DNA of 64,000 nucleotides from Escherichia phage BYEP02. Shown here piece by piece: positions 23,241 to 39,396 of this stretch (its first letter is position 1; each line of letters opens with the position of its first letter). The position numbers and the translations under genes are program-made. Location: sequence record OR757454.1, one strand, 5' to 3'. Under the pieces are notes generated by a model. It searched no databases, was not told where the DNA came from, and worked only from the letters and a program-made list of their open reading frames with translations.

Positions 23241-24828
<1,588 letters not shown>

Positions 24829-24831
24829 GCT

Positions 24832-24885
24832 GTTTACAAGTCCCTCGTGTTGTGTTATAGTAGTCTTACTGACATAACATGAGGA
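24832..24885 (+). promoter_or_regulatory. 54-bp early promoter cassette (copy A), upstream of alc
   Basis: GTTTAC-18 bp-TATAGT then conserved leader; identical to 38973-39026. Confidence 0.5.
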
Positions 24886-24892
24886 CTTTATG

Positions 24893-25396
24893 ATGGATTT
24901 ACAACTTATTACTACTGAAATGGTCGTTGAAGCATATGGTGATACTACAGATGGGATTTCTGTATTCAAAGGAAATCGTCGAGTTGGATATATCACCGAT
25001 CTTAAGAAAGATTTAGCTAAGCAAGTCAAGCGGAAAACGACCATTAAAGAATATCGAAATCGTCGTCTTGAGCAAGCCCGTGATATGCTTCCTGATGCGG
25101 TTGAAGAGATGAAAGTCTTTTTAGAAAATCAACTCGCTAAGTATGATTGTGATGTGTTCATTAATCAGACTCAACCTAATGTTCATATCAATAATTGTAA
25201 ATGCTACATCATCGTTAATCCTTTGACGGGAAAACATCGCCTTGGAATCAGTAATCCAAATCGTAGCGCATCAGATATGGCAGAAGATGTTGAGGCATGC
25301 TTTAAAATTTCTAAATCTCCTGCTGAACATCATATTTTAATTAACGGTCTTTCTCAAGACGATATTGTAGAGGTTATTAAAACTTTATGCAATTAA
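24893..25396 (+). CDS. alc: Alc, inhibitor of host transcription on cytosine DNA
   Basis: 167 aa from MDLQLITTEMVVEAYGD...; position rnlA-alc. Confidence 0.8.
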   Translation: MDLQLITTEMVVEAYGDTTDGISVFKGNRRVGYITDLKKDLAKQVKRKTTIKEYRNRRLEQARDMLPDAVEEMKVFLENQLAKYDCDVFINQTQPNVHINNCKCYIIVNPLTGKHRLGISNPNRSASDMAEDVEACFKISKSPAEHHILINGLSQDDIVEVIKTLCN

Positions 25397-25740
25397 GTAA
25401 TACGACAACAGGTTTGCTATTAATTGTAATTGCATTAGGCGGAACTTCTTTAATTTTAAAAAATAAAATTGAAAGATTAGAAACGTCTGTTGTAGAAATT
25501 ACAAAAACGGCCAATGAAAACGCCTTAGCATTAAATAATTTGCGAATTCAGTATAATTATATTGATGCGATGAATAATAAAAATCGTGAGGCAATTGCTG
25601 CTATTGAGCGTGAAAATGAAAAACTGCGCAAAGACGCAAAGAAGGCGGATGTGGTGGCTCATAAGCCAGGATTGGTTGAAAAACAAATCAACAACTCCTT
25701 CAACAAGTTCGCAGAAGACATCCAGGACCTTTCTAAATGA
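25387..25740 (+). CDS. i-spanin (Rz equivalent, pseT.3-like)
   Basis: 117 aa, N-terminal TM helix GLLLIVIALGGTSLIL then charged coiled-coil-like region; T4 spanins map to pseT.3/pseT.2. Confidence 0.55.
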   Translation: MQLSNTTTGLLLIVIALGGTSLILKNKIERLETSVVEITKTANENALALNNLRIQYNYIDAMNNKNREAIAAIERENEKLRKDAKKADVVAHKPGLVEKQINNSFNKFAEDIQDLSK

Positions 25741-26113
25741 TTAGACTATCAGCAGTAATATTATCTATTGGTCTTCTAGTTGGTTGTTCGACAAAGCCTC
25801 TAGAAGTAAAGAAAGAAACAGTTCATCCTAATTGGCCTGTTCTATTGGTCTTCTAGTTGGTTGTTCGACAAAGCCTCTAGAAGTAAAGAAAGAAACAGTT
25901 CATCCTAATTGGCCTGTACAAATAAAGTCATATGATGAAGCTAAACTATCTTGGCAAGTTAAAGTTATTGATGGTAAAGCTTGGGTCGGTATGCCATTTG
26001 AAGATTCCCAGGAATTTCGTATTTGGCTTAATGATGTAAAACGATATGTACATGACCAAAAAACTATGATATGTTATTATCGTCAAGAGCTAAAAGAGGA
26101 TAAATGCAAATGA
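25737..26113 (+). CDS. o-spanin lipoprotein (Rz1 equivalent, pseT.2-like), frame broken by 77-bp duplication (25764-25917)
   Basis: MIRLSAVILSIGLLVGC|STKP... signal peptide with lipobox LVGC; ATG overlaps stop of i-spanin. Confidence 0.5.
25764..25917. repeat. 77-bp direct tandem duplication inside o-spanin ORF
   Basis: copies 25764-25840 and 25841-25917; identical. Confidence 0.9.
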
Positions 26114-26334
26114 TTTCATGGCATCAATTTGAACATCTCAAAGGATTGATTTATGAATCCGAGATGGCTGCAATGATTTATGGACGCCAGATTCAACGGT
26201 TAGAATCTTTACCTCCAACTAATGATGTTTTATTAGCTCAATCTCGGGCTAATCTTAAAAATGAATACCAAAATAAGTGGGGTAAAGCATCTAAAGACCT
26301 GCATGATTATATTCAATCATTGGTTGAGAAATAA
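26104..26334 (+). CDS. hypothetical early protein (76 aa)
   Basis: ORF track. Confidence 0.4.
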   Translation: MQMISWHQFEHLKGLIYESEMAAMIYGRQIQRLESLPPTNDVLLAQSRANLKNEYQNKWGKASKDLHDYIQSLVEK

Positions 26335-26337
26335 TAA

Positions 26338-27562
<1,225 letters not shown>

Positions 27563-27563
<1 letters not shown>

Positions 27564-27760
27564 TGGCGTGGCATCATGAAACTTGGTCTATTGTTATTGT
27601 AAATAGTGGTTTAGTTGGTACTAGTAATGGGCAATTTTGTGTATTCACTAGTGAAATCAGAGCTTGGGAGGAATGCCTTAAATTAAGAGAAAAGAATCCT
27701 GATATTGAACTAACAGTAAAGAAAACTAAACTGCCTTTACCATGGAAAACTTATGAATAA
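27563..27760 (+). CDS. hypothetical small protein (65 aa)
   Basis: ORF track. Confidence 0.35.
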
Positions 27761-27953
27761 TATAGAAAAGATTTATCGTCTTTGTGATAAAATTGAAAAA
27801 GAAAAGAAATATCTATTTTGTTTATGGCCTATTGTTGACGGAAGAGTAGGCCTAGATGTTCTTGATTATGAAACAGAAGACAAAGTAGATGGTTCAACTT
27901 TTGATAACGCTTTGGATGTTATTGATTGGCTCGAAGAAAATTATGTGAGGTAA
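27753..27953 (+). CDS. hypothetical small protein (66 aa)
   Basis: ORF track. Confidence 0.35.
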   Translation: MNNIEKIYRLCDKIEKEKKYLFCLWPIVDGRVGLDVLDYETEDKVDGSTFDNALDVIDWLEENYVR

Positions 27954-28231
27954 ATATGTTTCCGACTTACTCTAAAATCGTAGAAGTAGTGTTTAGCCAA
28001 ATTATCGCTAATAATATGTTTGAAAAGCTTGATAACGCAGCCGAGCTTCGAATTCATGCTCAAGTGACTCATGTATTGAACGCTTTGCTTCCAGACCAGG
28101 TGGATTCTATTGCAATTACGCTGTATCCAGGTTCTGCTCATATTATTGTCGTATTCGGTCTTGATGCTGAGCTAGTCATCAAAGGCGATATTCGCTTTGA
28201 ATCACAGACATCAGAATTCAAAGCAATTTAA
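27926..28231 (+). CDS. hypothetical protein (101 aa)
   Basis: ORF track. Confidence 0.35.
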   Translation: MARRKLCEVNMFPTYSKIVEVVFSQIIANNMFEKLDNAAELRIHAQVTHVLNALLPDQVDSIAITLYPGSAHIIVVFGLDAELVIKGDIRFESQTSEFKAI

Positions 28232-28233
28232 TA

Positions 28234-28263
28234 GTTTACTTTACGGTAGAGTTGTGATATTAT
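28234..28263 (+). promoter_or_regulatory. early-type promoter (GTTTAC, 18 bp, TATTAT)
   Basis: GTTTACTTTACGGTAGAGTTGTGATATTAT upstream of ORF 28293. Confidence 0.35.
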
Positions 28264-28292
28264 AGCTCTACCAAACAAATGAGGAAATTGAA

Positions 28293-28606
28293 ATGCTAAG
28301 TGAAAAACCAATTACTGTTAAAGAATTCCAAGAAAAAGTTAAACTATTTGCTCAGGAATTGGTAAATAAGGTTTCTGAACGATTTCCAGAAACATCGGTT
28401 CGTGTCAAGAAAAAGTTAAACTATTTGCTCAGGAATTGGTAAATAAGGTTTCTGAACGATTTCCTGAAACATCGGTTCGTGTTATTACCGAAACTCCTCG
28501 TTCAGTATTAGTAATTGTGAATCCAGGCGATGGCGATCAAATAACACATCTCAAATTGGATTTTGATGGATTAGTTGAAGCACAAAGGGTGTATGGCGTA
28601 CTATGA
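28293..28606 (+). CDS. hypothetical small protein, frame broken by 77-bp duplication (28329-28482)
   Basis: ATG 28293 MLSEKPITVKEFQEKVKLFAQELVNKVSERFPETSVRV...; 78 codons after removing one repeat copy. Confidence 0.4.
28329..28482. repeat. 77-bp direct tandem duplication inside small ORF
   Basis: copies 28329-28405 and 28406-28482; 1 mismatch. Confidence 0.9.
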
Positions 28607-28941
28607 TGAATTTAACTGATATAATTGATAATTGTCTTGAAAATGATACTGGCGATCATAGAGCGCTTGACTCTGACACAGCACAGTTCATTAGAATAAC
28701 TTTAATGAATGATACTCTAGTGAATAGTATTCATCCTTCTGTATATGATGCTATTATTGTGACGAAGTATCCAGTTGAGCTTCACAAAAAGATGGTTGGT
28801 GCAATTTTTATTGATAAGAAAAACCGCTTTAAAGATGGGCAGAATATAATTAGTTCTGTTATTAAAAGTATAACTAAACTTCGTCACGAAATTTATCGTG
28901 TTGAAACTGCTAAATCTGCTTATCTGGTGATTATGAAATGA
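28603..28941 (+). CDS. hypothetical protein (112 aa)
   Basis: ORF track. Confidence 0.4.
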   Translation: MMNLTDIIDNCLENDTGDHRALDSDTAQFIRITLMNDTLVNSIHPSVYDAIIVTKYPVELHKKMVGAIFIDKKNRFKDGQNIISSVIKSITKLRHEIYRVETAKSAYLVIMK

Positions 28942-29519
28942 AAGCGAGTACAGTACTTCAAATTGCATATTTAGTATCACAAGAATCCAAATGTTGCTCC
29001 TGGAAGGTAGGAGCAGTAATTGAAAAGAATGGACGTATTATTTCTACCGGATATAATGGTTCACCTGCAGGTGGTGTGAACTGCTGTGATTATGCTGCTG
29101 AGCAAGGTTGGTTGCTGAATAAGCCTAAACATACTATCATTCAAGGTCATAAGCCTGAATGTGTATCGTTTGGTTCAACTGATCGTTTTGTTTTGGCGAA
29201 AGAACACCGTAGTGCTCACTCTGAATGGTCGTCTAAAAATGAAATTCATGCTGAACTAAATGCGATTTTGTTTGCTGCGCGAAATGGTTCTTCAATTGAA
29301 GGTGCTACTATGTATGTAACACTTTCTCCTTGCCCAGATTGTGCAAAAGCGATAGCTCAATCTGGAATTAAAAAGTTGGTTTATTGCGAAACATACGATA
29401 AAAATAAACCTGGCTGGGATGATATTCTGCGAAATGCGGGTATTGAAGTGTTTAATGTTCCTAAGAAAAACTTGAATAAGTTAAACTGGGAAAATATCAA
29501 CGAATTCTGTGGTGAATAA
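28938..29519 (+). CDS. cd: dCMP deaminase
   Basis: 193 aa with HAE and PCPDC zinc-binding motifs. Confidence 0.9.
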   Translation: MKASTVLQIAYLVSQESKCCSWKVGAVIEKNGRIISTGYNGSPAGGVNCCDYAAEQGWLLNKPKHTIIQGHKPECVSFGSTDRFVLAKEHRSAHSEWSSKNEIHAELNAILFAARNGSSIEGATMYVTLSPCPDCAKAIAQSGIKKLVYCETYDKNKPGWDDILRNAGIEVFNVPKKNLNKLNWENINEFCGE

Positions 29520-29755
29520 TGAAATTTCGTTTGGTACAGCTCACAGCAATTAGTTCTTATTCCAACGAGAATATTTCATTTGCTGTAGAGTATAAGAAGT
29601 ATTTTTTCTCTAAATGGAAGCAGTATTATAAGTCAAACTGGGTTTGTATTGATAGACCGCATAGTTGGAAATCTGATTTAGAAAAATGCCAAAAATTGCT
29701 TTCCACTCTTAAAGAACGTGGAACAACCCATATTAAAACTGTGATAGGTAAATAA
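29519..29755 (+). CDS. hypothetical protein (78 aa)
   Basis: ORF track. Confidence 0.4.
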   Translation: MKFRLVQLTAISSYSNENISFAVEYKKYFFSKWKQYYKSNWVCIDRPHSWKSDLEKCQKLLSTLKERGTTHIKTVIGK

Positions 29756-30064
29756 ATGAAACTGACGACTGAACAAAAAGTAGCAATTCGTGAAATTTTG
29801 AAAACTAAATTGTCCATGGGTATTTCAAACGTGGTTTTTGAAAAGTCTGATGGTACTATTCGTACCATGAAAGGCACTCGTGATGCAGACTTTATGCCAA
29901 CCATGCAAACTGGTAAATTGACTGAATCTACTCGGAAAGAATCTACTGATATGATTCCAGTATTTGATGTTGAGCTTGGTGCATGGCGAGGTTTTTCTAT
30001 TGACAAATTGATTTCCGTTAATGGTATGAAAGTTGAGCATTTGCTTCAATTTATTGGTAAATAA
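29756..30064 (+). CDS. hypothetical protein (102 aa)
   Basis: ORF track. Confidence 0.4.
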   Translation: MKLTTEQKVAIREILKTKLSMGISNVVFEKSDGTIRTMKGTRDADFMPTMQTGKLTESTRKESTDMIPVFDVELGAWRGFSIDKLISVNGMKVEHLLQFIGK

Positions 30065-30120
30065 ATGCTTTAAGAATTATTTGTTATTATTAATTTATCT
30101 GTTAACAAAAAGGAAAAACG

Positions 30121-30456
30121 ATGTCTGAAGTACAACAGCTACCAATTCGTGCTGTCGGTGAATATGTTATTTTAGTTTCTGAACCTGCACAAGCCGGTGA
30201 TGAAGAAGTTACAGAATCAGGACTTATTATCGGTAAACGCGTTCAAGGTGAAGTTCCTGAACTGTGTGTAATTCACTCTGTCGGTCCTGATGTTCCTGAA
30301 GGTTTTTGTGAAGTTGGTGATTTGACTTCTCTTCCAGTTGGTCAAATTCGAAATGTTCCGCATCCTTTTGTAGCTCTGGGTCTTAAGCAGCCAAAAGAAA
30401 TTAAACAAAAATTTGTTACCTGTCACTATAAAGCTATTCCGTGTCTTTATAAGTGA
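30121..30456 (+). CDS. 31: gp31 co-chaperonin (GroES analogue)
   Basis: 111 aa [30 protein letters not shown]... Confidence 0.9.
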
Positions 30457-30603
30457 TATAAATAATAATATGAATTGGGTGTCGGAATAATAAGTTAACC
30501 GAACAATTCTATGTGGTAGTCTACAACTGAGAGATCTGTCGAAAGAAGATGAAATTCAGAAGAACGTGACTACCGAGTTTTAATCTCTAACGAGAATTTT
30601 TAA

Positions 30604-30852
30604 ATGATTAAACAATTACAACACGCTCTTGAACTGCAACGAAACGCATGGAATAATGGTCACGAAAACTATGGCGCATCTATTGATGTTGAAGCCGAAG
30701 CTCTTGAAATCCTGCGTTATTTCAAACATCTGAATCCTGCTCAAACTGCATTAGCTGCTGAGCTTCAGGAAAAAGATGAACTTAAATATGCTAAGCCTTT
30801 GGCTTCTGCTGCACGAAAAGCAGTTCGTCACTTTGTGGTAACACTGAAGTAA
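30604..30852 (+). CDS. rIII: RIII lysis inhibition accessory protein
   Basis: 82 aa MIKQLQHALELQRNAWNNGHENYGAS... Confidence 0.85.
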   Translation: MIKQLQHALELQRNAWNNGHENYGASIDVEAEALEILRYFKHLNPAQTALAAELQEKDELKYAKPLASAARKAVRHFVVTLK

Positions 30853-31098
30853 TTTACTGGAGATTCACTGCCTTAGTGTGAGCTAAAATCGAGGAGCCGT
30901 CGAACTGTCTGATTAATGATTTGCGAATCATTATAGTTTTAAGACCCCGGCAGTTTTACGGTGTACCTCTTGAATGTGAATGATGACGGGTTTATGGTTA
31001 TCCTGGTCGTTAAATATCCAAAAACCTATGTTCCCCTTGAGGGCCTTGCGCAGGCAATGCCAATAAGTCCTGCATTTTCATTTAAAAGAGAATTTATA

Positions 31099-31275
31099 AT
31101 GGCAAAACAAGCTAAAGCAAAGAAAGCAGTTGAAAAGAAAGTTGGTGATTCTAAACGCGCTGGTTACAAGCGTGGGTCGAACTCTCGTATCAATCAAACT
31201 GTTGAGAAGATCATGCGCCGAGCACGTGCGGTTCTTCGAGATGATGCTTCTCGTTTTGGTAAGCAGAAAGCATAA
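31099..31275 (+). CDS. hypothetical small basic protein (58 aa)
   Basis: ATG 31099 MAKQAKAKKAVEKK... with AAGAGA SD; followed by terminator hairpin. Confidence 0.45.
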   Translation: MAKQAKAKKAVEKKVGDSKRAGYKRGSNSRINQTVEKIMRRARAVLRDDASRFGKQKA

Positions 31276-31280
31276 GTTGA

Positions 31281-31305
31281 GGACTCCTTCGGGAGTCCTT
31301 TTTTA
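31281..31305 (+). terminator. rho-independent terminator
   Basis: GGACTCCTTCGGGAGTCC followed by TTTTTTATTTT. Confidence 0.55.
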
Positions 31306-31327
31306 TTTTCCAAAGATTGCATAAAGT

Positions 31328-31358
31328 TGTTTACAGTATGGTTCCTTTGTGATAGTAT
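31328..31358 (+). promoter_or_regulatory. early-type promoter-like element (GTTTAC ... TAGTAT)
   Basis: GTTTACAGTATGGTTCCTTTGTGATAGTAT upstream of ORF 31386. Confidence 0.3.
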
Positions 31359-31385
31359 TATCTTACACAAACAAAGGAGAATAAA

Positions 31386-31718
31386 ATGAAAACGATTAAT
31401 CTGAACGCTACAGTTAAAACTAAATGCTTCAATGGTAAATATGATGAAACTATGTGGTTCTTAATGGCAGTTGAAGGTGATATTATTGAAGTAGAAACAA
31501 CAGAAGGTATGGGAACAGATTTCACCTTTACAATTCAAGTTCATAATTTCTTTACTGGTTGGATTTATGAATTGAATACAGTAATCGTTGGAAAAATTGA
31601 ACAAAATGAATTAGGCGAATGGTATTATGTTACAGCTCGCCAACGTGCCGAACGCTTAATTAAGAAGATGAAAAAAGTTGGTAAACTTGACATGCAGCAT
31701 TGGAAAGTAGTAAAATAA
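31386..31718 (+). CDS. hypothetical protein (110 aa)
   Basis: ORF track. Confidence 0.4.
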   Translation: MKTINLNATVKTKCFNGKYDETMWFLMAVEGDIIEVETTEGMGTDFTFTIQVHNFFTGWIYELNTVIVGKIEQNELGEWYYVTARQRAERLIKKMKKVGKLDMQHWKVVK

Positions 31719-31720
31719 TT

Positions 31721-31749
31721 GTTTACTTTGGTACAGGATATGATATTAT
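31721..31749 (+). promoter_or_regulatory. early-type promoter (GTTTAC, 17 bp, TATTAT)
   Basis: GTTTACTTTGGTACAGGATATGATATTAT upstream of ORF 31786. Confidence 0.35.
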
Positions 31750-31785
31750 ATACCTGTACCGCAATTAAACATCTTGGAGAATAAA

Positions 31786-32228
31786 ATGAACTACATTAAC
31801 TTTGAACGTAAATATGTTTCTAATGGTATTGCAGGTTCTATTGATACTATTTGCCTTTGGAAACATCAAAAATTAACTTTGAACGTAAATATGTTTCTAA
31901 TGGTATTGCAGGTTCTATTGATACCATCTGCCTTTGGAAACATCAAAATGGATCAGTATGCGAAATTGAACAGTATATGACTCCTAACTACGTTTATATG
32001 CGATTTGAAAATGGCATCACGGTTTCAATCACAATGGAAGGTTCCAACTTCAAAATTGCTTTGGATGATGATTTTCGTCAACGCGATTTAGGGACTCATC
32101 CTTGCTGGAATGGCGTTAATCGCAAGCTTCTGGTTAAAACTTGGATTCGTCATATTCTGAGTAACAGAGCTAAACCTGAGCATCTTGAAGCAATCTTTGA
32201 TGTAGTTCTTAACGAATTTGATATTTAA
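31786..32228 (+). CDS. hypothetical protein, frame broken by 77-bp duplication (31795-31948)
   Basis: ATG 31786 MNYINFERKYVSNGIAGSIDTICLWKHQ...; pieces 31774.. and 31851..32228. Confidence 0.4.
31795..31948. repeat. 77-bp direct tandem duplication inside small ORF
   Basis: copies 31795-31871 and 31872-31948; 2 mismatches. Confidence 0.9.
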
Positions 32229-32269
32229 AATAAAAATGAGGGGCTTCGGCCCCTATTGAGGAAAATATT

Positions 32270-32557
32270 ATGTTTATGACTACTTATTTTGATACCCGCA
32301 AAAATTTCTGTGAAGTTGTTTTCTCTAAGGCGCCTAAAGACCTTCCTGCACATTTGCAACCTACTAGCGAATCGATTAAAAACTACGTTGATGTGGTTTG
32401 TCCTTTAGAGTTTCGTACTGTAAATGGGCGCGATACTTTAGCTATCACTAAACTCAATCGTGAAATTGACATTGACCCTTCAATTGCGCGCGAAATTAAT
32501 ATCTCTGATATTGGTGGCGGTAATGTTAAATCGCACGGTTTTCAGATGAGGTTCTAA
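32270..32557 (+). CDS. hypothetical protein (95 aa)
   Basis: ORF track. Confidence 0.4.
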   Translation: MFMTTYFDTRKNFCEVVFSKAPKDLPAHLQPTSESIKNYVDVVCPLEFRTVNGRDTLAITKLNREIDIDPSIAREINISDIGGGNVKSHGFQMRF

Positions 32558-32754
32558 TGAAATTCTTTTTAGGTCAAACTGTTGAATTAAAGGGAGTTGG
32601 TATACCTGGATTAATTTCTAAGGTTCTACCTCCATTTAAATGGAGTGGTATTCAAATAAAAGAGGCTTATATTGTTTCCTGGGTAGATGGAAATGAAGAC
32701 CTTCGTATGGGTGATGAATTATCTCCTATCTACGGATTAAAGGAATTAGTATGA
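32557..32754 (+). CDS. hypothetical protein (65 aa)
   Basis: ORF track. Confidence 0.35.
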   Translation: MKFFLGQTVELKGVGIPGLISKVLPPFKWSGIQIKEAYIVSWVDGNEDLRMGDELSPIYGLKELV

Positions 32755-32957
32755 ATATAATTAATAAGATTTTTGGAATTCAGTACATTAAGGTCACATA
32801 TAAAGTAACAGATAAAAATCCATATACTGATGAACATGAAGAACCACGAGTTGAGTCTATTATATTAGAAAAGGACCCTAACTGGCCAGTTGAATTTCGT
32901 CTTCCTTGCTATGGTCATTGGGCTGATGTTGAAATTATAAGCATTGAAAATGTCTGA
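32751..32957 (+). CDS. hypothetical protein (68 aa)
   Basis: ORF track. Confidence 0.35.
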   Translation: MNIINKIFGIQYIKVTYKVTDKNPYTDEHEEPRVESIILEKDPNWPVEFRLPCYGHWADVEIISIENV

Positions 32958-33485
32958 GTTAGAGATTAGAAGCAATTTTAGGTGGCCATCATGTGCATTA
33001 AGTAATTTCGCCCAATGGCCTTTCGTTATGGATGGTATTCAATTTGGAGGTCTTGAAGGATTCCTCCAAGGATGCAAGGTGAAAAACGTTGAACAACAAC
33101 GTCGTATATTTGGGTTATCTGGGCTTGCCGCTCAACAAGCTGGAAGGTCTTATGCTAGAGCTCAGGACCGTGGGACCCTCTTCTGGCTTGGAGTTCCGTT
33201 TTCAAGATACTCCCCGGCGTGGAAAGAATTATACACAAATGCATATTTTGAAGCAGCGTTCCAAAACAAGGGTTTTCGCGATGCATTACAAGCCTCGAAA
33301 GGAAAAGTTTTGAAGCACAGCATGGCTAGTGGTCTAACAAAAGATGATACTTTCGTGATGCATTACAAGCCTCGAAAGGAAAAGTTTTGAAGCACAGCAT
33401 GGCTAGTGGTCTAACAAAAGATGATACAATACTAACCGAAGCTGAATTTATTGATGTGTTAAACCTATTAAGAGACTCTCTATGA
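32944..33485 (+). CDS. NADAR/YbiA-like (DUF1768-like) protein, frame broken by 77-bp duplication (33274-33427)
   Basis: motif WPSCALSNFAQWPFVMDGIQFGGLEGFLQGCKV resembles NADAR core (SNF...F..DG..F...E.F.Q..K) as recalled; 154 aa after removing one repeat copy. Confidence 0.45.
33274..33427. repeat. 77-bp direct tandem duplication inside NADAR-like ORF
   Basis: copies 33274-33350 and 33351-33427; 1 mismatch. Confidence 0.9.
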
Positions 33486-34321
33486 AGCCTACTATTTTAA
33501 CTGATATTGATGGAGTGTGTTTAAGCTGGCAATCAGGCCTTCCTTATTTTGCTCAGAAATATAATCTTCCGTTGGAACATATTTTAAAAATGATCCAAGA
33601 TGAAAAATTTATTTCTCCTGGTAAACTTTTTAATTGTGATGAAGAACTTGGTGTCAAGTTAATTGAAAAATACAATCGTTCAGATTTTATTCGTTACTTG
33701 TCTCCATATAAAGATGCTCTGTGTGTAATTAACAAATTAAAAGAAGATTATAATTTTGTAGCTGTTACAGCGCTGGGTGATTCTATTGACGCTCTGCTGA
33801 ATCGTCAATTTAATTTGAATGCTCTTTTTCCTGGTGCCTTCTCAGAAGTACTGATGTGTGGTCATGATTCTTCAAAAGAAGAGTTGTTCAAAAAGGCAAA
33901 AGAGAAATATAACGTAATTTGTTATATTGACGATCTCGCTCACCACTGCGATCACGCGAGTGAAATATTAAGTGTTCCTGTTTATTGGATGGCTCGAGGG
34001 GAACGTGACAGTATTCCAAAAACTGCTCAGCGAGTTTATACATGGAACGATGTAGAGAATAAGCTTTTTTCACCAAAGGAAAATAAAGAAAGTTTTGATA
34101 GTGAAAAAGCTATAAAAGATGTAATTGAAAAGATGATTAAAAACGATTCTTTTCGTTGGAACACTACCTGGAGAACTCCTGGATTTAATCCTTATAATCA
34201 TCTATATCATCCATATCAGACACATCCGTTTCAGACATGGAACTATATTAAACCCGGCGGTATAGAGTATTTGTATAATAGACTTACTAGTGGTGATAAT
34301 ATTTTCCAAGGAGCATTCTAA
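33482..34321 (+). CDS. HAD-superfamily hydrolase-like protein (279 aa)
   Basis: N-terminal DIDGV (HAD motif I-like) and later YIDD; function not assigned. Confidence 0.4.
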   Translation: MKPTILTDIDGVCLSWQSGLPYFAQKYNLPLEHILKMIQDEKFISPGKLFNCDEELGVKLIEKYNRSDFIRYLSPYKDALCVINKLKEDYNFVAVTALGDSIDALLNRQFNLNALFPGAFSEVLMCGHDSSKEELFKKAKEKYNVICYIDDLAHHCDHASEILSVPVYWMARGERDSIPKTAQRVYTWNDVENKLFSPKENKESFDSEKAIKDVIEKMIKNDSFRWNTTWRTPGFNPYNHLYHPYQTHPFQTWNYIKPGGIEYLYNRLTSGDNIFQGAF

Positions 34322-34587
34322 TGTTTGTCGTTCACACTATTTATGAAAATGAAGGTAATACTACACGTGATTACGGTCACGTAAATCAATTTTTTAGATG
34401 CAATCCAGAATTCCGAGCTCAAAAAGACGAACGAATTTTTAAAAAATGTGTAGAGCAAGGTTTCATTTACGTCAAGCACTGGATGCAAGGAAATAAAGTT
34501 AGAACTACATATCATAAGTCTTTGCCTGAGCTTAATGATGAATTGATTTATAATAGAGCTGTAAACCAAACTCTGAAGGATGAATAA
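34321..34587 (+). CDS. hypothetical protein (88 aa)
   Basis: ORF track. Confidence 0.4.
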   Translation: MFVVHTIYENEGNTTRDYGHVNQFFRCNPEFRAQKDERIFKKCVEQGFIYVKHWMQGNKVRTTYHKSLPELNDELIYNRAVNQTLKDE

Positions 34588-36050
34588 TGATTCTTAAAAT
34601 TCTGAATGAAATAGCATCTATTGGTTCAACTAAGCAGAAGCAAGCAATTCTTGAAAAGAATAAAGATAATGAATTGCTTAAACGAGTATATCGTCTGACT
34701 TATTCTCGTGGGTTGCAGTATTATATCAAGAAATGGCCTAAACCTGGTATTGCTACCCAGAGTTTTGGAATGCTGACCATTACCGATATGCTTGACTTCA
34801 TTGAATTCACGTTAGCTACTCGGAAATTGACTGGAAATGCTGCAATTGAGGAATTGACTGGATATATCACCGATGGTAAAAAGGATGATGTTGAAGTTTT
34901 GCGTCGAGTTATGATGCGAGACCTTGAATGCGGTGCTTCAGTATCTATTGCAAACAAAGTTTGGCCAGGTTTAATTCCTGAACAACCTCAAATGCTGGCA
35001 AGTTCTTATGATGAAAAAGGCATTAGTAAGAATATCAAGTTTCCAGCTTTTGCACAGTTAAAAGCAGATGGAGCTCGGTGTTTTGCTGAAGTCCGAGGTG
35101 ATGAATTAGATGATGTTCGTCTTTTATCACGAGCTGGTAATGAATATCTAGGATTAGATCTTCTTAAGGAAGAATTAATCAAAATGACTGCTGAAGCCCG
35201 CCAGATTCATCCAGAAGGTGTGTTAATTGATGGCGAATTGGTATACCATGAGCAAGTTAAAAAGGAACCAGAAGGACTAGATTTTCTTTTTGATGCTTAT
35301 CCTGAAATTAGTAAAGCTAAAGAATTCGCCGAAGTAGCGGAATCTCGTACTACTTCTAATGGAATCGCCAATAAATCCTTAAAAGGAACCATTTCTGAAA
35401 AAGAAGCTCAATGTATGAAGTTTCAGGTCTGGGATTATGTCCCGTTGGTAGAAATATACGGTCTTCCGGCGTTTCGTTTAAAATATGATGTACGTTTTTC
35501 TAAACTAGAACAAATGACATCAGGATATGATAAAGTAATTTTAATTGAAAACCAGGTAGTAAATAACCTAGATGAAGCTAAGGTAATTTATAAAAAGTAT
35601 ATTGACCAAGGTCTTGAAGGTATTATTCTCAAAAATATCGATGGATTATGGGAAAATGCTCGTTCAAAAAATCTCTATAAATTTAAAGAAGTAATTGATG
35701 TTGATTTAAAAATTGTAGGAATTTATCCTCACCGTAAAGACCCTACTAAAGCAGGTGGATTTATTCTTGAGTCAGAGTGTGGAAAAATTAAGGTAAATGC
35801 TGGTTCAGGCTTAAAAGATAAAGCCGGTGTAAAATCGCATGAACTTGACCGTACTCGCATTATGGAAAACCAAAATTATTATATTGGAAAAATTCTAGAG
35901 TGCGAATGCAATGGTTGGTTAAAATCTGATGGCCGCACTGATTACGTTAAATTATTTCTTCCGATTGCGATTCGTTTACGTGAAGATAAAACTAAAGCTA
36001 ATACGTTCGAAGATGTATTTGGCGATTTTCATGAGGTAACTGGTCTATGA
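34587..36050 (+). CDS. 30: ATP-dependent DNA ligase
   Basis: 487 aa MILKILNEIASIGSTKQKQAILEK... with KADG adenylation motif. Confidence 0.9.
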   Translation: MILKILNEIASIGSTKQKQAILEKNKDNELLKRVYRLTYSRGLQYYIKKWPKPGIATQSFGMLTITDMLDFIEFTLATRKLTGNAAIEELTGYITDGKKDDVEVLRRVMMRDLECGASVSIANKVWPGLIPEQPQMLASSYDEKGISKNIKFPAFAQLKADGARCFAEVRGDELDDVRLLSRAGNEYLGLDLLKEELIKMTAEARQIHPEGVLIDGELVYHEQVKKEPEGLDFLFDAYPEISKAKEFAEVAESRTTSNGIANKSLKGTISEKEAQCMKFQVWDYVPLVEIYGLPAFRLKYDVRFSKLEQMTSGYDKVILIENQVVNNLDEAKVIYKKYIDQGLEGIILKNIDGLWENARSKNLYKFKEVIDVDLKIVGIYPHRKDPTKAGGFILESECGKIKVNAGSGLKDKAGVKSHELDRTRIMENQNYYIGKILECECNGWLKSDGRTDYVKLFLPIAIRLREDKTKANTFEDVFGDFHEVTGL

Positions 36051-36235
36051 AAGCTTACTTAGAAACAATTGTCGTGGCTCAAAAAGAAGGTGGAGATGTT
36101 TCTACTTCTGTATCACAAGTCATTCTCGAATTTGTAGATGCATACGCTTATAATAAATTTACAGAAACATTTGATGCTTATGAAAAAGGTCCAAAGTTTG
36201 AAATATATCGTACTCTCTTACCTATAGATTATTAA
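36047..36235 (+). CDS. hypothetical small protein (62 aa)
   Basis: ORF track; followed by hairpin. Confidence 0.4.
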   Translation: MKAYLETIVVAQKEGGDVSTSVSQVILEFVDAYAYNKFTETFDAYEKGPKFEIYRTLLPIDY

Positions 36236-36257
36236 AGGCCTTCGGGCCTTTAATTTT
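36233..36257 (+). terminator. terminator-like hairpin
   Basis: AAAGGCCTTCGGGCCTTT followed by AATTTTAT. Confidence 0.4.
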
Positions 36258-36287
36258 ATAAATAGAATAAACACTAGAGAGGATATG

Positions 36288-38612
36288 ATGGAACTAATTA
36301 CAGAATTATTTGACGAAGATACTACTCTTCCGATTACAAACTTAAATCCAAAGAAGAAAATACCACAAATTTTTTCAGTTCATGTTGATGACGCAATTGA
36401 ACAACCAGGCTTTCGTTTATGTACCTATACATCTGGAGGTGATACTAATCGTGATTTAAAGATGGGCGATAAAATGATGCACATTGTTCCTTTTACATTA
36501 ACTGCTAAAGGTTCAATTGCTAAATTGAAAGGTCTTGGTCCAAGCCCAATTAATTATATCAATTCAGTTTTTACTGTTGCAATGCAAACAATGCGTCAGT
36601 ATAAAATTGATGCCTGCATGCTTCGTATTCTTAAGTCTAAAACCGCTGGTCAAGCTCGACAAATTCAAGTTATTGCTGATAGACTTATCCGTAGTCGTTC
36701 AGGTGGCAGATACGTCCTTCTTAAGGAACTCTGGGATTATGATAAAAAGTATGCATATATTCTTATACATCGCAAAAATGTATCACTAGAAGACATTCCA
36801 GGAGTTCCGGAAATTAGTACCGAGCTCTTTACTAAAGTTGAATCGAAGGTCGGTGATGTTTATATCAATAAAGATACTGGAGCTCAAGTAACTAAAAATG
36901 AGGCAATTGCAGCATCTATTGCAAGGTCGGTGATGTTTATATCAATAAAGATACTGGAGCTCAAGTAACTAAAAATGAGGCAATTGCAGCATCTATTGCA
37001 CAAGAAAACGATAAACGTTCTGACCAAGCTGTAATCGTTAAAGTTAAAATTTCCCGTAGAGCAATTGCACAAAGTCAATCATTAGAGTCTTCTAGATTTG
37101 AAAGTGAATTATTCCAGAAGTATGAATCTACAGCAGCTAATTTTAATAAACCAGCTACTGCACCTTTAATTCCCGAAGCAGAAGAAATGAAAATTGGAAT
37201 TAATTCATTAGCTTCTAAAACTAAGGCAGCAAAAATCATTGCCGAAGGAACTGCAGATGAACTTCATTATGACTATAAATTCTTTTCAAAAAGTGAGGTT
37301 AATGAAGTTTCTGAAAAAATTAAAGATGTAATTCTTAATGCGATTAAAAATGAACCAACCACTTCAATAAAATGTTTAGAGAAATACGCAGCAGCTGTTA
37401 ATCAATTCTTTGAAGAATATAAAGATAATTGGCTTGATAAACATAATAAAACACGTAAAGGACAGCCAGATGAAGTCTGGGAAGAAATAACTAAAAATTC
37501 CTGGAACGCGACAAAAACTAAATTCCTCAAAAGAATGATTTATAGTTTCTCTGGAATTGGTGCAGGTCCAATGATTGATATTACTATTGCCCGTGATGGT
37601 TCTAAATATACTCCATCACAAAAGCGCGGCATTAGAGAGTATTGCGGTTCAGGATATACTGACATCAATAATCTTCTTTTAGGACGCTACAATCCAGAAC
37701 GATATGATGTAATGAGTGAAAAAGAAATTGAATCTGCTATAAATAACTTAGATTCAGCTTTTGAAAATGGTGACCGCATACCGGAAGGCATCACAGTTTA
37801 TCGTGCTCAAAGCATGACTGCTCCTATATACGAAGCATTAGTTAAAAATAAAGTATTCTATTTCAGAAATTTTGTATCTACTTCTTTAACTCCTATCATT
37901 TTTGGACGTTTTGGATAGTTAAAAATAAAGTATTCTATTTCAGAAATTTTGTATCTACTTCTTTAACTCCTATCATTTTTGGACGTTTTGGAATTACACA
38001 TGCTGGTATTGGTCTTTTAGAACCAGAAGCTCGCAATGAATTAACAGTTGATAAAAATGAAGAAGGAATAACTATTAATCCAAACGAAATAAGAGCGTAT
38101 AAAGAAAATCCTGAATACGTTAAAGTTCAAATAGGATGGGCAATTGATGGAGCAATCCAAACGAAATAAGAGCGTATAAAGAAAATCCTGAATACGTTAA
38201 AGTTCAAATAGGATGGGCAATTGATGGAGCTCATAAAGTTAATGTTGTATATCCAGGAAGTCTCGGAATAGCAACAGAAGCTGAAGTTATTCTACCGCGT
38301 GGATTGATGGTCAAAGTTAATAAAATAACTGATGCTTCTAATAATGACGGAACAACATCTAATAATACAAAACTCATTCAAGCTGAAGTTATGACCACGG
38401 AAGAGCTCACCGAATCGGTAATCTATGATGGAGACCATTTAATGGAAACTGGTGAATTGGTTGCAATGACAGGTGATATTGAAATAGAAGACAGAGTTGA
38501 CTTTGCATCATTTGTTTCATCAAATGTTAAACAGAAAGTAGAATCATCTCTTGGAATTATTGCGTCTTGCATAGATATTGCAAACATGCCTTACAAGTTC
38601 GTTCAAGGATAA
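36288..38612 (+). CDS. alt: Alt ADP-ribosyltransferase (packaged), frame broken by three 77-bp duplications
   Basis: MELITELFDEDTTLPITNLNPKKKIPQIF... through ...IANMPYKFVQG; pieces 36285.., 37187.., 38304..38612. Confidence 0.85.
36846..36999. repeat. 77-bp direct tandem duplication inside alt
   Basis: copies 36846-36922 and 36923-36999; identical. Confidence 0.9.
37839..37992. repeat. 77-bp direct tandem duplication inside alt
   Basis: copies 37839-37915 and 37916-37992; identical. Confidence 0.9.
38077..38230. repeat. 77-bp direct tandem duplication inside alt
   Basis: copies 38077-38153 and 38154-38230; identical. Confidence 0.9.
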
Positions 38613-38615
38613 ATC

Positions 38616-38972
38616 ATGGAACTTATTACATAATTATTTGACGGCGCTTCGGCGCCGGTTGTTAACTTAAATCCTAAGCATAAAATACCACAAATTTTTG
38701 CTATTCAAGCCGGCGAAGAAAGCGTGCTTCCTGGATTTAGATTTTGTACATACACCTCTGGCGGTGATACAGATAAAACGTTAAACCAGGCGACAAAATG
38801 ATGCATATCGTAATGATAGGTGTTAATGAGAAACTATCATTAGTTAAGCTTAAAAACTTGGGTGGAAATCCAATTGGTGTCATTAATGCTGTTTTTGATA
38901 CTGCTCTTCAAACAATGAAACAGTATAAAATCGACGCATGCCTATTACGCGTACTAAAAAGTTCAAAATGTA
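38616..38972 (+). pseudogene. decayed partial paralogue of alt N-terminal region
   Basis: translation MELIT*LFDGASAPVVNLNPKHKIPQIF...FCTYTSGGDTDK... parallels Alt residues 1-115 but has an in-frame stop at codon 6 and a frameshift. Confidence 0.5.
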
Positions 38973-39026
38973 GTTTACAAGTCCCTCGTGTTGTGTTATA
39001 GTAGTCTTACTGACATAACATGAGGA
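38973..39026 (+). promoter_or_regulatory. 54-bp early promoter cassette (copy B), upstream of ORF 39034
   Basis: identical to 24832-24885. Confidence 0.5.
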
Positions 39027-39033
39027 ACACAAA

Positions 39034-39324
39034 ATGAAATCTTCTTTACGCTTTTTAGGTCAAGAACTTGTAGTTGAAGGCGTTATTCCTGCTGATAATG
39101 CTTTTAATGAAGCAGTTTATGATGAATTTATCAAAATTTTCGGAACAGATAAAAAGTTTGGAATTTTTCCTTCTGAAAATTTTTCAAAGCCAGAACAGAC
39201 TGAAAGTATTTTTCAGGGTGTAGTAACAGGTAAATTTGAGTCAGAAGCTCCGGTAAAAATTGAAGTTTATATTGAAGACAGTTTAGTTGCTTCAGTTGCT
39301 GCTTTCATTTCATTCCGTAAATAA
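39034..39324 (+). CDS. hypothetical protein (96 aa)
   Basis: ORF directly downstream of 54-bp promoter repeat; ends before bidirectional terminator. Confidence 0.45.
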   Translation: MKSSLRFLGQELVVEGVIPADNAFNEAVYDEFIKIFGTDKKFGIFPSENFSKPEQTESIFQGVVTGKFESEAPVKIEVYIEDSLVASVAAFISFRK

Positions 39325-39330
39325 AAATAT

Positions 39331-39348
39331 GGGGACCGAAAGGTCCCC
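39331..39348. terminator. bidirectional terminator hairpin between ORF 39034-39324 and gene 54
   Basis: GGGGACCGAAAGGTCCCC; T-run on the minus-strand side. Confidence 0.5.
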
Positions 39349-39396
39349 GTTGTTATATTGCTCCTAATATTTTACTCTGCGAATTGACAATCCCTG

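What the first reader, a model, noticed from the sequence alone, without database searches (positions are those of the whole stretch)
24832..39026. Identical 54-bp early-promoter cassette at two loci 14 kb apart
GTTTACAAGTCCCTCGTGTTGTGTTATAGTAGTCTTACTGACATAACATGAGGA occurs at 24832-24885 (upstream of alc) and 38973-39026 (upstream of ORF 39034, right after the alt remnant). Each is a GTTTAC, 18-bp spacer, TATAGT promoter plus leader. Repeated promoter cassettes of this kind have been proposed to mediate modular gene shuffling in T4-type phages, and these two copies could support recombination or deletion between them.
Basis: partly seen in the sequence, partly recalled or inferred. Interest (0 to 1): 0.5.

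Follow-up and report, generated by a model that had tools for sequence, protein, structure and literature searches.

The report
Duplicated T4 early promoter with RBS-masking hairpin
The two identical 54-bp stretches are real: they are one T4-type early promoter plus leader placed in front of two early genes (alc and alt.-3). The pair occurs in essentially every T4-genus phage. It folds, in read-through RNA only, into a hairpin predicted to hide the ribosome-binding site, so it is a modest regulatory variant and not a driver of genome shuffling.

Summary
The 54-mer occurs exactly twice, at 24832-24885 and 38973-39026, with 0 chance matches in shuffles.

The window is a Tequatrovirus (T4-genus) genome. 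Copy 1 fills the rnlA-alc gap and copy 2 sits just upstream of alt.-3. Both copies are present in about 499 of 499 Tequatrovirus records, including T4 itself (1 mismatch between its copies), so nothing here is peculiar to this window.

Each copy is a TTTACA-17-TGnTATAGT promoter. Its spacer and -10 region form the 5' arm of an 18-bp hairpin (-22 kcal/mol, z -5.4), and the 3' arm contains the Shine-Dalgarno GAGG. The predicted start site lies at the first base of the 3' arm, so only transcripts arriving from upstream can mask the ribosome-binding site.

At alc this anti-SD-in-spacer design recurs in several other Tevenvirinae genera with different stem sequences, which is covariation. At alt.-3 the other genera carry a different promoter cassette. 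The Tequatrovirus alt.-3 copy is therefore best read as an old ectopic copy of the alc cassette.

Published T4 omics class both genes as early.

No rearrangement bounded by the copies was seen, and essential genes 30 and 31 lie between them.

Verdict: a PeSL-like cassette combined with the known T4 logic of a promoter inside an RBS-masking hairpin, here with an early promoter. Interest is modest.

The window also carries 17 exact 77-nt tandem duplications, most likely assembly artefacts.

The parts
24832..24885 (+). Cassette copy 1 (rnlA-alc intergenic). -35 TTTACA 24833-24838; TG 24853-24854; -10 TATAGT 24856-24861; predicted +1 at A24868; hairpin 5' arm 24843-24862; 3' arm 24867-24884; SD GAGGA 24881-24885.
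   Evidence: Exact match. Promoter scan gives 10/12 hexamer matches with an extended -10. Fold is -22 kcal/mol, z -5.4. At this locus the helix extends further, AAGUCC/GGACUU, to -24.4 kcal/mol.
38973..39026 (+). Cassette copy 2 (upstream of alt.-3). -35 38974-38979; -10 38997-39002; predicted +1 at A39009; hairpin 5' arm 38984-39003; 3' arm 39008-39025; SD 39022-39026.
   Evidence: Exact match. Promoter scan. Fold is -23 kcal/mol, z -4.0. Covariance model R1 scores it 59.5 bits, against 33 bits or less for other early promoters in the window.
23704..24828 (+). rnlA (RNA ligase 1, gene 63). Its stop codon TAA ends 3 nt before copy 1. It is the source of read-through transcripts into alc.
   Evidence: Annotation of relatives; ORF list; sequence.
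24890..25396 (+). alc (inhibitor of host transcription), the gene served by copy 1. T4 annotates the second ATG at 24893 as the start.
   Evidence: Pfam PF17527 E 1.4e-91; PHROG 1253; T4 annotation.
36257..36264 (+). Late promoter TATAAATA upstream of alt, just after a GC hairpin. Late alt transcripts must run through copy 2.
   Evidence: alt is classed as a late gene in T4 omics. The same site is annotated as a late promoter in phage SA20RB.
36285..38612 (+). alt (ADP-ribosyltransferase). It is broken into three ORFs in this window by 77-nt tandem duplications at 36846, 37839 and 38077.
   Evidence: the relatives have an intact alt.
38798..39001 (+). alt.-2, a remnant of a second alt paralogue. 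Its stop codon TAG is bases 27-29 of copy 2, inside the -10 hexamer.
   Evidence: ORF list; PHROG 15247 and PHROG 802 (Alt-like, residues 64-120); T4 note calling it an 'old duplication of the first part of gene alt'.
39034..39324 (+). alt.-3 (DUF5498, 96 aa, function unknown), the gene served by copy 2.
   Evidence: Pfam PF17602 E 1.4e-64; T4 annotation. It is non-essential, and C-terminal extensions escape the CmdTAC defence system (PMC11618068).
39329..39350 (.). Bidirectional intrinsic terminator between alt.-3 and gene 54. It is the first terminator-like site downstream of the alt late promoter on the + strand.

Best explanation
The two 54-bp copies are one regulatory cassette: a T4-type sigma-70 early promoter, its leader and a Shine-Dalgarno sequence. 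The cassette drives immediate-early expression of alc and of alt.-3. Its special feature is that the promoter spacer and -10 region (positions 12-31) are complementary to the leader and SD (positions 36-53). RNA polymerase starting at this promoter begins at about position 37, so its transcripts carry only the 3' arm and have a free ribosome-binding site. Transcripts that enter from upstream carry both arms, form an 18-bp hairpin and bury the SD. These are rnlA read-through at copy 1 and late alt read-through at copy 2. The cassette therefore ties translation to the transcript's origin, and so to early time. This is the mirror image of the T4 e/soc/49/I-TevI arrangement, where a late promoter sits in the 5' arm. 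The design is ancestral at alc. The alt.-3 copy arose in the Tequatrovirus ancestor when an ectopic conversion replaced a different early-promoter cassette, bounded by the GTTTACAA and CATGAGGA motifs that both cassettes shared. Occasional later conversion, together with selection on the hairpin, keeps the copies nearly identical. Shown here: the repeat, its distribution, promoter quality, hairpin thermodynamics, covariation, and published early expression. Inferred: the start site, SD masking in vivo, and the direction and mechanism of copying.
For: - Exact two-copy repeat, present twice per genome in 499 Tequatrovirus records including T4.
- Promoter is TTTACA-17-TGnTATAGT.
- T4 omics class alc and alt.-3 as early RNA and early protein, while rnlA is late protein, alt is late and alt.-1/-2 are middle.
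- Hairpin is -22 kcal/mol, z -5.4, 0/200 shuffles as stable. RNA starting near position 35 folds no better than shuffles, at -1.8 and -2.8 kcal/mol.
- SD unpaired probability at alc is 0.00 in read-through RNA versus 0.64 in own-promoter RNA.
- Among 33 distinct rnlA-alc cassettes from 45 loci in several Tevenvirinae genera and unclassified IMG/VR contigs, 23 pair the whole SD (1 more pairs 3 of 4 bases) with spacer positions 9-15. They use different stem sequences, for example CCATTTGGTT/AACCAAATGG, CTCATCAG/CTGATGAG and CTCTCATTTT/AAAATGAGAG.
- Swap test: cognate arms average -17.5 kcal/mol versus -9.6 +/- 3.3 for non-cognate arms.
- On 20 non-Tequatrovirus cassettes, 82% of cells are paired and 7 of 13 pairs change on both sides. 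There are 33 double-change cells versus 15.5 +/- 3.5 in shuffles (0/500), and the covariation score is 0.294 versus 0.172 (0/500), with slid controls at 0.145 or less.
- Within Tequatrovirus, 13 natural variant haplotypes keep -19 to -23.7 kcal/mol (mean -21.3), versus -18.4 +/- 0.8 for random substitution sets of equal size (0/1000). C15T with G50A is a compensatory pair at the alt.-3 copy.
- alt.-3 upstream regions in 5 other genera have a different cassette, with a small hairpin inside the spacer and a free SD.
- Alleles G16A, T27C, G29A and G32A occur at both loci, and UFV10 carries G29A+G32A in both copies.
- A late promoter upstream of alt, with no terminator before 39329, forces read-through of copy 2.
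Against: - No start-site or translation data for these two promoters could be found, so +1 at position 37 is only the standard 7-nt rule.
- At alt.-3 the promoter-initiated leader is itself predicted to pair the SD weakly with codons 3-5. That is only about -3 kcal/mol and no better than shuffles, but P(unpaired) is 0.10.
- In this window and in T4 the alt.-2 ORF reads into the 5' arm up to position 29. If alt.-2 is translated, ribosomes would open the hairpin.
- About a quarter of alc cassettes in other lineages lack SD pairing, including Mosigvirus, L046, L051 and L059-L062, so masking is not indispensable.
- Other genera manage alt.-3 without masking.
- Evidence for concerted evolution is weak: within-genome differences average 2.0 versus 2.4 between genomes, permutation p about 0.05, n = 13, and the sample is biased towards divergent genomes.
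- The covariation alignments were fitted to the model structure.
Confidence: 0.6

Rival explanations
1. The hairpin acts as a PeSL-type insulator. It attenuates, terminates or 3'-stabilises transcripts arriving from upstream, as shown for RB49 PeSL stem-loops, and SD pairing is incidental.
For: Other early promoters in the window (28234, 31721) also have strong hairpins straddling the -10 that do not touch the SD. RB49 PeSL stem-loops terminated transcription in reporter assays (PMC2839356). The annotators of phage SA20RB labelled this very hairpin a rho-independent terminator. Some alc cassettes (L046, L051, L059) keep a hairpin but leave the SD free.
Against: No U-tract follows the stem at either locus or in other genera, and neither site passes the terminator scan. 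In 23 of 33 distinct alc cassettes the 3' arm is precisely the SD region, and the arm covaries with it. Genes downstream of alc (pseT.3 to pseT) have no further promoter nearby and need through-transcription.
Confidence: 0.2
2. The hairpin is a translational-coupling device. In read-through mRNA the SD is opened only when a ribosome finishing the upstream ORF (rnlA, alt paralogue or alt.-2) melts the 5' arm, so downstream translation is coupled to upstream translation and is not blocked.
For: Upstream stop codons lie 0-5 nt before the -35 in all genera, often as TAG overlapping GTTTAC. In this window and T4 the alt.-2 ORF ends inside the 5' arm at cassette positions 27-29.
Against: With the stop codon at or before position 1, a terminating ribosome reaches only about positions 6-12. 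That leaves most of an 18-bp helix intact (an inference from known ribosome footprint sizes). Alt.-1 and Alt.-2 proteins were not detected in T4 proteomics. Alc and Alt.-3 proteins are early while RnlA and Alt accumulate late, which is the opposite of coupled expression.
Confidence: 0.1
3. One reading: the repeat matters mainly as a substrate for homologous recombination, mediating deletion, duplication or modular shuffling of the genes between or beside the copies.
For: T4 recombination needs less than 50 bp of homology, and PeSL pairs form mini-circles in RB49/phi1 (PMC2839356). The cassette itself has evidently moved between loci.
Against: Both copies are retained at the same loci in about 499 of 499 genomes, with the same gene order in the 13 inspected. 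The interval contains essential genes 30 and 31. The flanking genes rnlA, alc and alt.-3 are conserved, and the neighbouring alt-paralogue polymorphism does not end at the cassette (flanks).
Confidence: 0.05
4. The identity is trivial: either generic similarity of strong T4 early promoters or an assembly artefact of this window.
For: T4-type early cassettes share about 65-75% identity in general. The window does contain assembly artefacts.
Against: Identity is 54/54, while other early promoters in the window score 33 bits or less against 54-59 bits, and BLAST finds only two places per genome. The pair is present in the T4 reference and hundreds of isolates. The copies are not near the 77-nt junctions.
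Confidence: 0.02

Closest known systems
PeSL (promoter-early stem-loop) cassettes of T4-type phages (Arbiol et al. 2010, PMC2839356; Comeau et al. 2014, PMC4122927)
   Same: It is a compact intergenic unit made of a sigma-70-like early promoter, a stem-loop overlapping the promoter, an SD and a start codon. It is repeated within a genome. The T4/PST consensus TTTACW-N17-TAYWAT fits. The cassette has evidently been exchanged between loci.
   Different: The family has only two copies, sitting in conserved gene neighbourhoods and not in hyperplastic ORFan regions. No indels or swaps are bounded by it across the genus. The stem's 3' arm is the SD itself, whereas the PeSL papers discuss the stem only as a terminator or attenuator and never mention translation. 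No U-tract follows the stem.
RBS-sequestering hairpins with an internal promoter in T4 genes e, soc, 49 and I-TevI (reviewed in PMC3014915)
   Same: In long read-through transcripts the SD or AUG is buried in a helix. A promoter located in or before the 5' arm yields transcripts that lack that arm and are translatable. The effect is to restrict translation to one temporal class.
   Different: In the known cases the internal promoter is a late (gp55) promoter and the masked transcripts are early or middle. Here the internal promoter is an early sigma-70 promoter, the anti-SD lies in its spacer, and the masked transcripts would be read-through, middle or late ones. alc and alt.-3 are not among the cases listed in that review. 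No experimental test exists here.
Canonical T4 early promoters (GTTTAC ... TGnTATAAT with UP-like A/T tracts; Hinton 2010, PMC2988021)
   Same: It has the -35 GTTTACA, a 17-bp spacer, an extended -10 TG, an A start 7 nt downstream, and early expression of the downstream genes in T4.
   Different: The -10 is TATAGT (TACAGT or TATAAT in some relatives). The spacer sequence is constrained by complementarity to the SD, which is not a general property of T4 early promoters. Other early promoters in the window lack it.
Ectopic gene conversion or regulatory-region swapping between dispersed repeats in T-even phages (Repoila et al. 1994, cited in PMC4122927)
   Same: Short conserved regulatory motifs at gene borders serve as exchange points. 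The identical cassette lies between unrelated flanks.
   Different: What moved here is the regulatory segment itself, about 40 bp between two shared motifs, and not the genes it flanks. An apparently reciprocal case exists in Mosigvirus, where alc carries the alt.-3-type cassette.

Membership tests
T4-type early (sigma-70) promoter | -35 GTTTAC(A), a 17-bp spacer and an extended -10 TGnTAnnnT | tested here: met
   TTTACA-17-TATAGT with TG, 10/12 hexamer matches, at both copies.
T4-type early (sigma-70) promoter | The downstream gene is expressed immediately after infection | tested here: met
   In T4, alc and alt.-3 are classed early-RNA/early-protein (PMC9697503 supplement). This is gene-level data, not promoter-level.
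T4-type early (sigma-70) promoter | A mapped transcription start about 7 nt after the -10 | not testable with these tools
   A T4 dRNA-seq start-site table exists (bioRxiv 10.1101/2024.04.04.588121), but its table is not held. Predicted starts are T4 136300 and 123057, minus strand.
PeSL cassette | Composite of early promoter, stable stem-loop, SD and start codon in one intergenic unit | tested here: met
   The stem overlaps the -10, as in the commonest RB49 arrangement.
PeSL cassette | Many copies per genome, concentrated in hyperplastic regions next to variable ORFans | tested here: not met
   There are two places per genome. The loci are flanked by conserved rnlA/alc and alt/alt.-3/gene 54.
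PeSL cassette | Association with indels, replacements or mini-circles bounded by the cassettes | tested here: not met
   The same order and about 13-15.5 kb spacing hold in 13 genomes, and no junction variants were seen. Mini-circles are not testable here.
PeSL cassette | The stem-loop terminates or attenuates upstream transcription | not testable with these tools
   There is no U-tract and the site is not called by the terminator scan. It was annotated as a terminator by WebGeSTer in SA20RB.
T4 RBS-sequestration with internal promoter (e, soc, 49, I-TevI class) | The SD and/or AUG is inside a stable helix in read-through transcripts | tested here: met
   SD positions 50-53 are paired, -22 to -24 kcal/mol, and P(unpaired) is 0.00. 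The helix is supported by covariation at alc across genera.
T4 RBS-sequestration with internal promoter (e, soc, 49, I-TevI class) | The promoter is positioned so that its own transcripts lack the 5' arm | tested here: met
   The 5' arm is positions 12-31, covering the spacer and -10. The predicted +1 is position 37. This rests on prediction only.
T4 RBS-sequestration with internal promoter (e, soc, 49, I-TevI class) | The internal promoter is a late (TATAAATA) promoter and translation is delayed to late times | tested here: not met
   The internal promoter is the early sigma-70 type and no TATAAATA lies in the cassette. It works like the class but with reversed timing.
T4 RBS-sequestration with internal promoter (e, soc, 49, I-TevI class) | Demonstrated inhibition of translation from long transcripts | not testable with these tools
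   This needs reporter fusions or toeprinting.
Intrinsic (rho-independent) terminator | A GC-rich stem followed directly by a U-tract | tested here: not met
   The stem is followed by CUUUAUGAUGG (copy 1) and AACACAAAAUG (copy 2). Neither is listed among the 15 terminator-like sites.
Known Rfam RNA family | A match to a curated covariance model | tested here: not met
   No hit at either cassette at E up to 1.

The most novel reading that the evidence does not exclude
T4-like phages have a conserved, portable 'transcript-origin gate'. An early sigma-70 promoter carries, in its own spacer, the anti-Shine-Dalgarno strand for the gene it serves. Only RNAs born at that promoter are translated, and read-through middle or late RNAs are silenced. 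This early-time mirror image of the e/soc/49/I-TevI late switch has guarded alc across several Tevenvirinae genera. In the T4 genus it was copied as a unit onto alt.-3, putting an uncharacterised counter-defence-linked gene under the same early-only regime as the host-transcription terminator Alc.
Probability: 0.45. Interest if true: 0.5.

Novelty: new variant of a known kind. Interest (0 to 1): 0.35.

Why it matters
If the gate works as proposed, it adds a simple cis-encoded way for T4-type phages to confine a protein to the first minutes of infection, even though its coding sequence keeps being transcribed as part of longer middle and late RNAs. That would explain why Alc and Alt.-3 proteins are early while the genes just upstream yield late proteins.

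It would also extend the textbook T4 lysozyme-type switch to the opposite temporal direction. And it would show that the unit exchanged between loci can be the regulatory cassette itself and not the genes it flanks.

Practically, annotation pipelines should not call these hairpins terminators. Engineers who insert genes downstream of rnlA or alt should expect the native cassette to silence read-through translation. For the scan itself, the repeat is a conserved, already-sequenced feature of phage T4 and not a peculiarity of this sample.

Tried and rejected
- An exact-pattern scan of IMG/VR for the first 21 nt gave only 7 loci from 5 contigs, too few for a population survey.
- A metagenome scan anchored on the alt.-3 start gave 5 real copies and 2 chance matches, L072 and L076.
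- The plain MAFFT alignment with RNAalifold recovered only the 4 SD/anti-SD pairs, because stems of different length were mis-registered. I replaced it with an arm-swap duplex test and a covariance-model alignment. Even then the Tequatrovirus sequences stayed 3 nt out of register, so they were left out of the cleaner count.
- The test for recent concerted evolution was borderline (p about 0.05, n = 13), so I do not claim ongoing homogenisation, only occasional transfer of alleles between the loci.
- Literature searches for a mapped alc or alt.-3 promoter or start site found nothing usable. Miller 2003 and Koch 1995 are not held. The PeSL paper's list of PST/T4 PeSLs is in a figure or supplement that is not held, so I cannot say whether this pair was already listed there.
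- Rfam had no match.
- RegB (GGAG) control is not applicable in Tequatrovirus, where the SD is GAGGA.
- Rejected: intrinsic terminator (no U-tract), assembly artefact, and generic promoter similarity.

Full report
**Observation**

The 54-mer occurs exactly twice in the window, at 24832-24885 and 38973-39026 on the + strand. There are no further matches at up to three mismatches and none in 100 dinucleotide-preserving shuffles. The flanks are unrelated on both sides. The repeat therefore runs precisely from the G of GTTTAC to the A of GAGGA, that is, from the -35 element to the Shine-Dalgarno sequence.

**Context**

The window is a Tequatrovirus (T4-genus) genome, and the + strand is the early-gene strand.
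- Copy 1 fills the 61-bp gap between the rnlA stop codon and the alc start. The downstream ORF is Alc (PF17527, E 1e-91).
- Copy 2 lies between alt.-2 and alt.-3. alt.-2 is a remnant of a second alt paralogue that is full-length in T6-like relatives. alt.-3 is a 96-aa DUF5498 protein.
- alt.-3 is non-essential and of unknown function. C-terminal extensions of it let T4 escape the CmdTAC defence system (PMC11618068).

**Distribution**

A BLAST of the 54-mer finds 997 places in 499 phage records, two per genome, all Tequatrovirus-like, and all at 94% identity or more. In the T4 reference the alc copy is identical to the window's and the alt.-3 copy differs by one base, G40A. The feature is thus a conserved property of the whole genus, present in one of the best-studied genomes there is. 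It is not special to this sample.

**Anatomy**

The promoter scan calls both copies as TTTACA-17-TATAGT with a TG extended -10, matching 10 of 12 hexamer positions.

The 54-mer folds into a hairpin of 18 base pairs at -22.0 kcal/mol, with z = -5.4 and 0 of 200 shuffles as stable.
- The 5' arm is cassette positions 12-31, which is the promoter spacer plus the -10 hexamer.
- The 3' arm is positions 36-53 and includes the SD GAGG.
- At alc the helix extends by AAGUCC/GGACUU, reaching -24.4 kcal/mol.

By the usual 7-nt rule transcription should start at A37, the first base of the 3' arm. RNAs starting there fold no better than shuffles, at -1.8 and -2.8 kcal/mol. At alc the SD is never unpaired in read-through RNA and is 64% unpaired in promoter-length RNA. 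At alt.-3 the promoter-length RNA has a weak local SD-codon 3-5 helix of about -3 kcal/mol. That helix lowers the computed accessibility but is energetically trivial next to -22 kcal/mol.

No U-tract follows the stem and the terminator scan does not call it. Rfam has no match.

**Is the hairpin real? Comparative evidence at alc**

I collected rnlA-alc intergenic regions from six other genera in GenBank phages and from 39 IMG/VR loci. This gave 33 distinct cassettes. All but four loci keep GTTTAC(A) a few bases after the rnlA stop.

In 23 of the 33, all four SD bases pair with spacer positions 9-15 immediately after the -35; one more (L064) pairs three of four. The stem sequences differ between lineages, for example:
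- TCTCCATTTGGTT/AACCAAATGGAGA
- TCCTCATCAG/CTGATGAGGA
- CCTCTCATTTT/AAAATGAGAGG
- CCTCGTTTGTT/AACAAACGAGG

Three tests support the helix:
- **Arm swapping.** Cognate arms average -17.5 kcal/mol, against -9.6 +/- 3.3 for arms from different stem classes.
- **Covariance-model alignment of 20 non-Tequatrovirus cassettes.** 82% of cells are paired and 7 of 13 pairs change on both sides. There are 33 double-change cells against 15.5 +/- 3.5 in shuffles (0/500). The covariation score is 0.294 against 0.172 (0/500), and at most 0.145 when the partners are slid. The alignment was fitted to the model, which favours the structure. The slid controls and the swap test argue that this is not the whole story.
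- **Variation inside Tequatrovirus.** Thirteen natural variant haplotypes keep -19 to -23.7 kcal/mol (mean -21.3), against -18.4 +/- 0.8 for random substitution sets of equal size (0/1000). The alt.-3 copy of phage GBLB0003 carries C15T together with G50A, a compensatory pair. G50A alone would cost about 6 kcal/mol.

**Exceptions**

About a quarter of alc cassettes do not mask the SD. Some keep a big hairpin across the -10 that stops short of the SD (L046, L051, L059). Mosigvirus and a few others have only a small hairpin inside the spacer. Other early promoters in this window, at 28234 and 31721, also have -10-straddling hairpins that leave the SD free. Hairpins over early promoters are therefore general in these phages, as the PeSL papers describe. 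SD masking is a special, though widespread, elaboration at alc.

**History of the second copy**

Upstream of alt.-3 in Dhakavirus, Mosigvirus, Marfavirus, Kanagawavirus and Kagamiyamavirus there is also an early promoter, TAG-GTTTACAA...TACTAT...CATGAGGA, of the same length. It has a different spacer containing a small internal hairpin, and no SD pairing.

The alc-type design is thus ancestral at alc, and the alt.-3 copy is specific to Tequatrovirus. The simplest reading is a single ectopic conversion in the genus ancestor that replaced about 40 bp between GTTTACAA and CATGAGGA. Both ancestral cassettes shared those motifs, which explains the sharp ends of the repeat.

Within the genus the two copies are identical in 4 of 13 genomes (including this window) and differ at 1-5 positions in the rest. 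The same derived alleles (G16A, T27C, G29A, G32A) occur at both loci, and UFV10 carries G29A+G32A in both. Within-genome similarity is only marginally higher than between-genome similarity, 2.0 against 2.4 differences, p about 0.05. I conclude that there is occasional inter-locus transfer, not strong ongoing homogenisation.

Mosigvirus shows the converse. Its alc cassette is 80-82% identical to alt.-3-type cassettes and only 62-72% identical to other alc cassettes. That type occurs three times per Mosigvirus genome.

**Function**

In T4, alc and alt.-3 are both early-RNA/early-protein genes. rnlA is early-RNA/late-protein, alt is late, and alt.-1/-2 are middle (PMC9697503).

A late promoter, TATAAATA, sits at 36257 in front of alt. 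The first terminator-like site on that strand is at 39329, beyond alt.-3. Late alt transcripts must therefore cross copy 2. Likewise there is nothing but the cassette between rnlA and alc.

I therefore propose that the cassette both supplies early transcripts with an open RBS and silences translation from read-through RNAs. This is the established T4 logic for e, soc, 49 and I-TevI (PMC3014915), but with an early promoter instead of a late one inside the 5' arm. That review does not list alc or alt.-3, and the PeSL paper never discusses translation.

The masking step and the start site are inferred, not shown.

**Rival explanations**
- **Attenuator or insulator role, as proposed for PeSLs.** This is possible and not exclusive. 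It is weakened by the missing U-tract and by the SD-specific covariation.
- **Translational coupling.** Upstream stops lie next to the -35, and alt.-2 ends inside the 5' arm. However, the opposite timing of the upstream and downstream proteins argues against it.
It is not supported. Both copies persist at fixed loci in about 499 of 499 genomes, essential genes 30 and 31 lie between them, and no junction variants were seen.
- **Chance or artefact.** This is excluded.

**Verdict**

This is a real, conserved, two-copy early promoter/leader cassette. It is best classed as PeSL-like in build and as an early-promoter variant of the T4 switch in which a promoter sits inside an RBS-masking hairpin. 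The repeat itself is already present in the T4 reference genome and the general ideas are published. [quoted passage not shown] Interest is modest (0.35).

**Data quality of the window**

The window contains 17 exact tandem duplications of exactly 77 nt. They are absent from close relatives where checked, and most likely come from unitigs joined without trimming k = 77 overlaps. They frameshift alt and other genes.

Noticed in passing
window 7526, 7764, 10150, 14691, 15229, 20013, 25764, 36846, 37839, 38077, 42273, 43883, 47462, 48666, 54240, 62751, 63311 (start of each 154-nt block): There are 17 exact tandem duplications of exactly 77 nt, two copies each, with no other period found. The one at 25764 is absent from BYEP01 and T4. 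They are almost certainly assembly artefacts from k=77 unitigs concatenated without trimming the overlap. They frameshift genes, for example splitting alt into three ORFs, and imply that the window may be a chimeric path through a strain mixture.
   Followed up: partly
L019 245-306 (Mosigvirus alc upstream); L023 342-403 and L022 343-403 (alt.-3 upstream): In Mosigvirus the alc promoter cassette is of the alt.-3 type. It is 80-82% identical to the Mosigvirus and Dhakavirus alt.-3 cassettes and 62-72% identical to other alc cassettes, with no SD masking. BLAST finds that type at three places per Mosigvirus genome. This suggests an independent cassette swap between the same two loci in the opposite direction. 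The third copy was not located.
   Followed up: partly
window 28234-28295 and 31721-31788 (+): Two other GTTTAC-type early promoters have strong hairpins (-16 and -19 kcal/mol) straddling the -10 hexamer and ending just before a free SD. This is PeSL-like promoter/stem-loop architecture and appears to be general for early promoters here.
   Followed up: partly
window 36330-36445 vs 38655-38770: A 116-nt direct repeat at 72% identity links the 5' part of alt and the alt.-1/alt.-2 region. This is the old partial duplication of alt noted in the T4 annotation. T6-like relatives carry a full-length second alt paralogue (2058 nt) at this place.
   Followed up: yes
L069 31792-31841 (phage SA20RB, OL960581.1): The depositors annotated the alt.-3 cassette hairpin as a rho-independent terminator (WebGeSTer) and annotated no promoter there or at alc. 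Elsewhere in that record several early promoters overlap 'terminator' features. It is an example of how these composite elements are mis-annotated.
   Followed up: no
window 36235-36264 (+) and 39329-39350: A GC hairpin (aaaggccttcgggccttt) is followed directly by the late promoter TATAAATA in front of alt. A bidirectional terminator, ATGGGGACCGAAAGGTCCCCGT, lies between the convergent alt.-3 and gene 54.
   Followed up: partly
window 50936-51511: A tandem repeat of two 288-nt units at 78% identity, presumably a duplicated protein domain inside a structural gene. It was not examined.
   Followed up: no
window 9463-10516: Four copies of a ~68-nt unit at 65-71% identity with irregular spacing (306, 560, 120). 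This is probably a repeated motif in a long minus-strand structural gene. It was not examined.
   Followed up: no
window 58793-58890: A cluster of overlapping 26-nt repeats (TCATCATCCTCGTCTTC...) with 9-nt periodicity. On the minus strand it would encode an acidic Asp/Glu-rich tract. It was not examined.
   Followed up: no
window 23630-23680 (+): Upstream of rnlA, the sequence ATGCTTCCA-N13-TACTAT looks like a MotA-box middle promoter, judged by eye only. It would add middle-mode transcripts reading through rnlA into the alc cassette.
   Followed up: no
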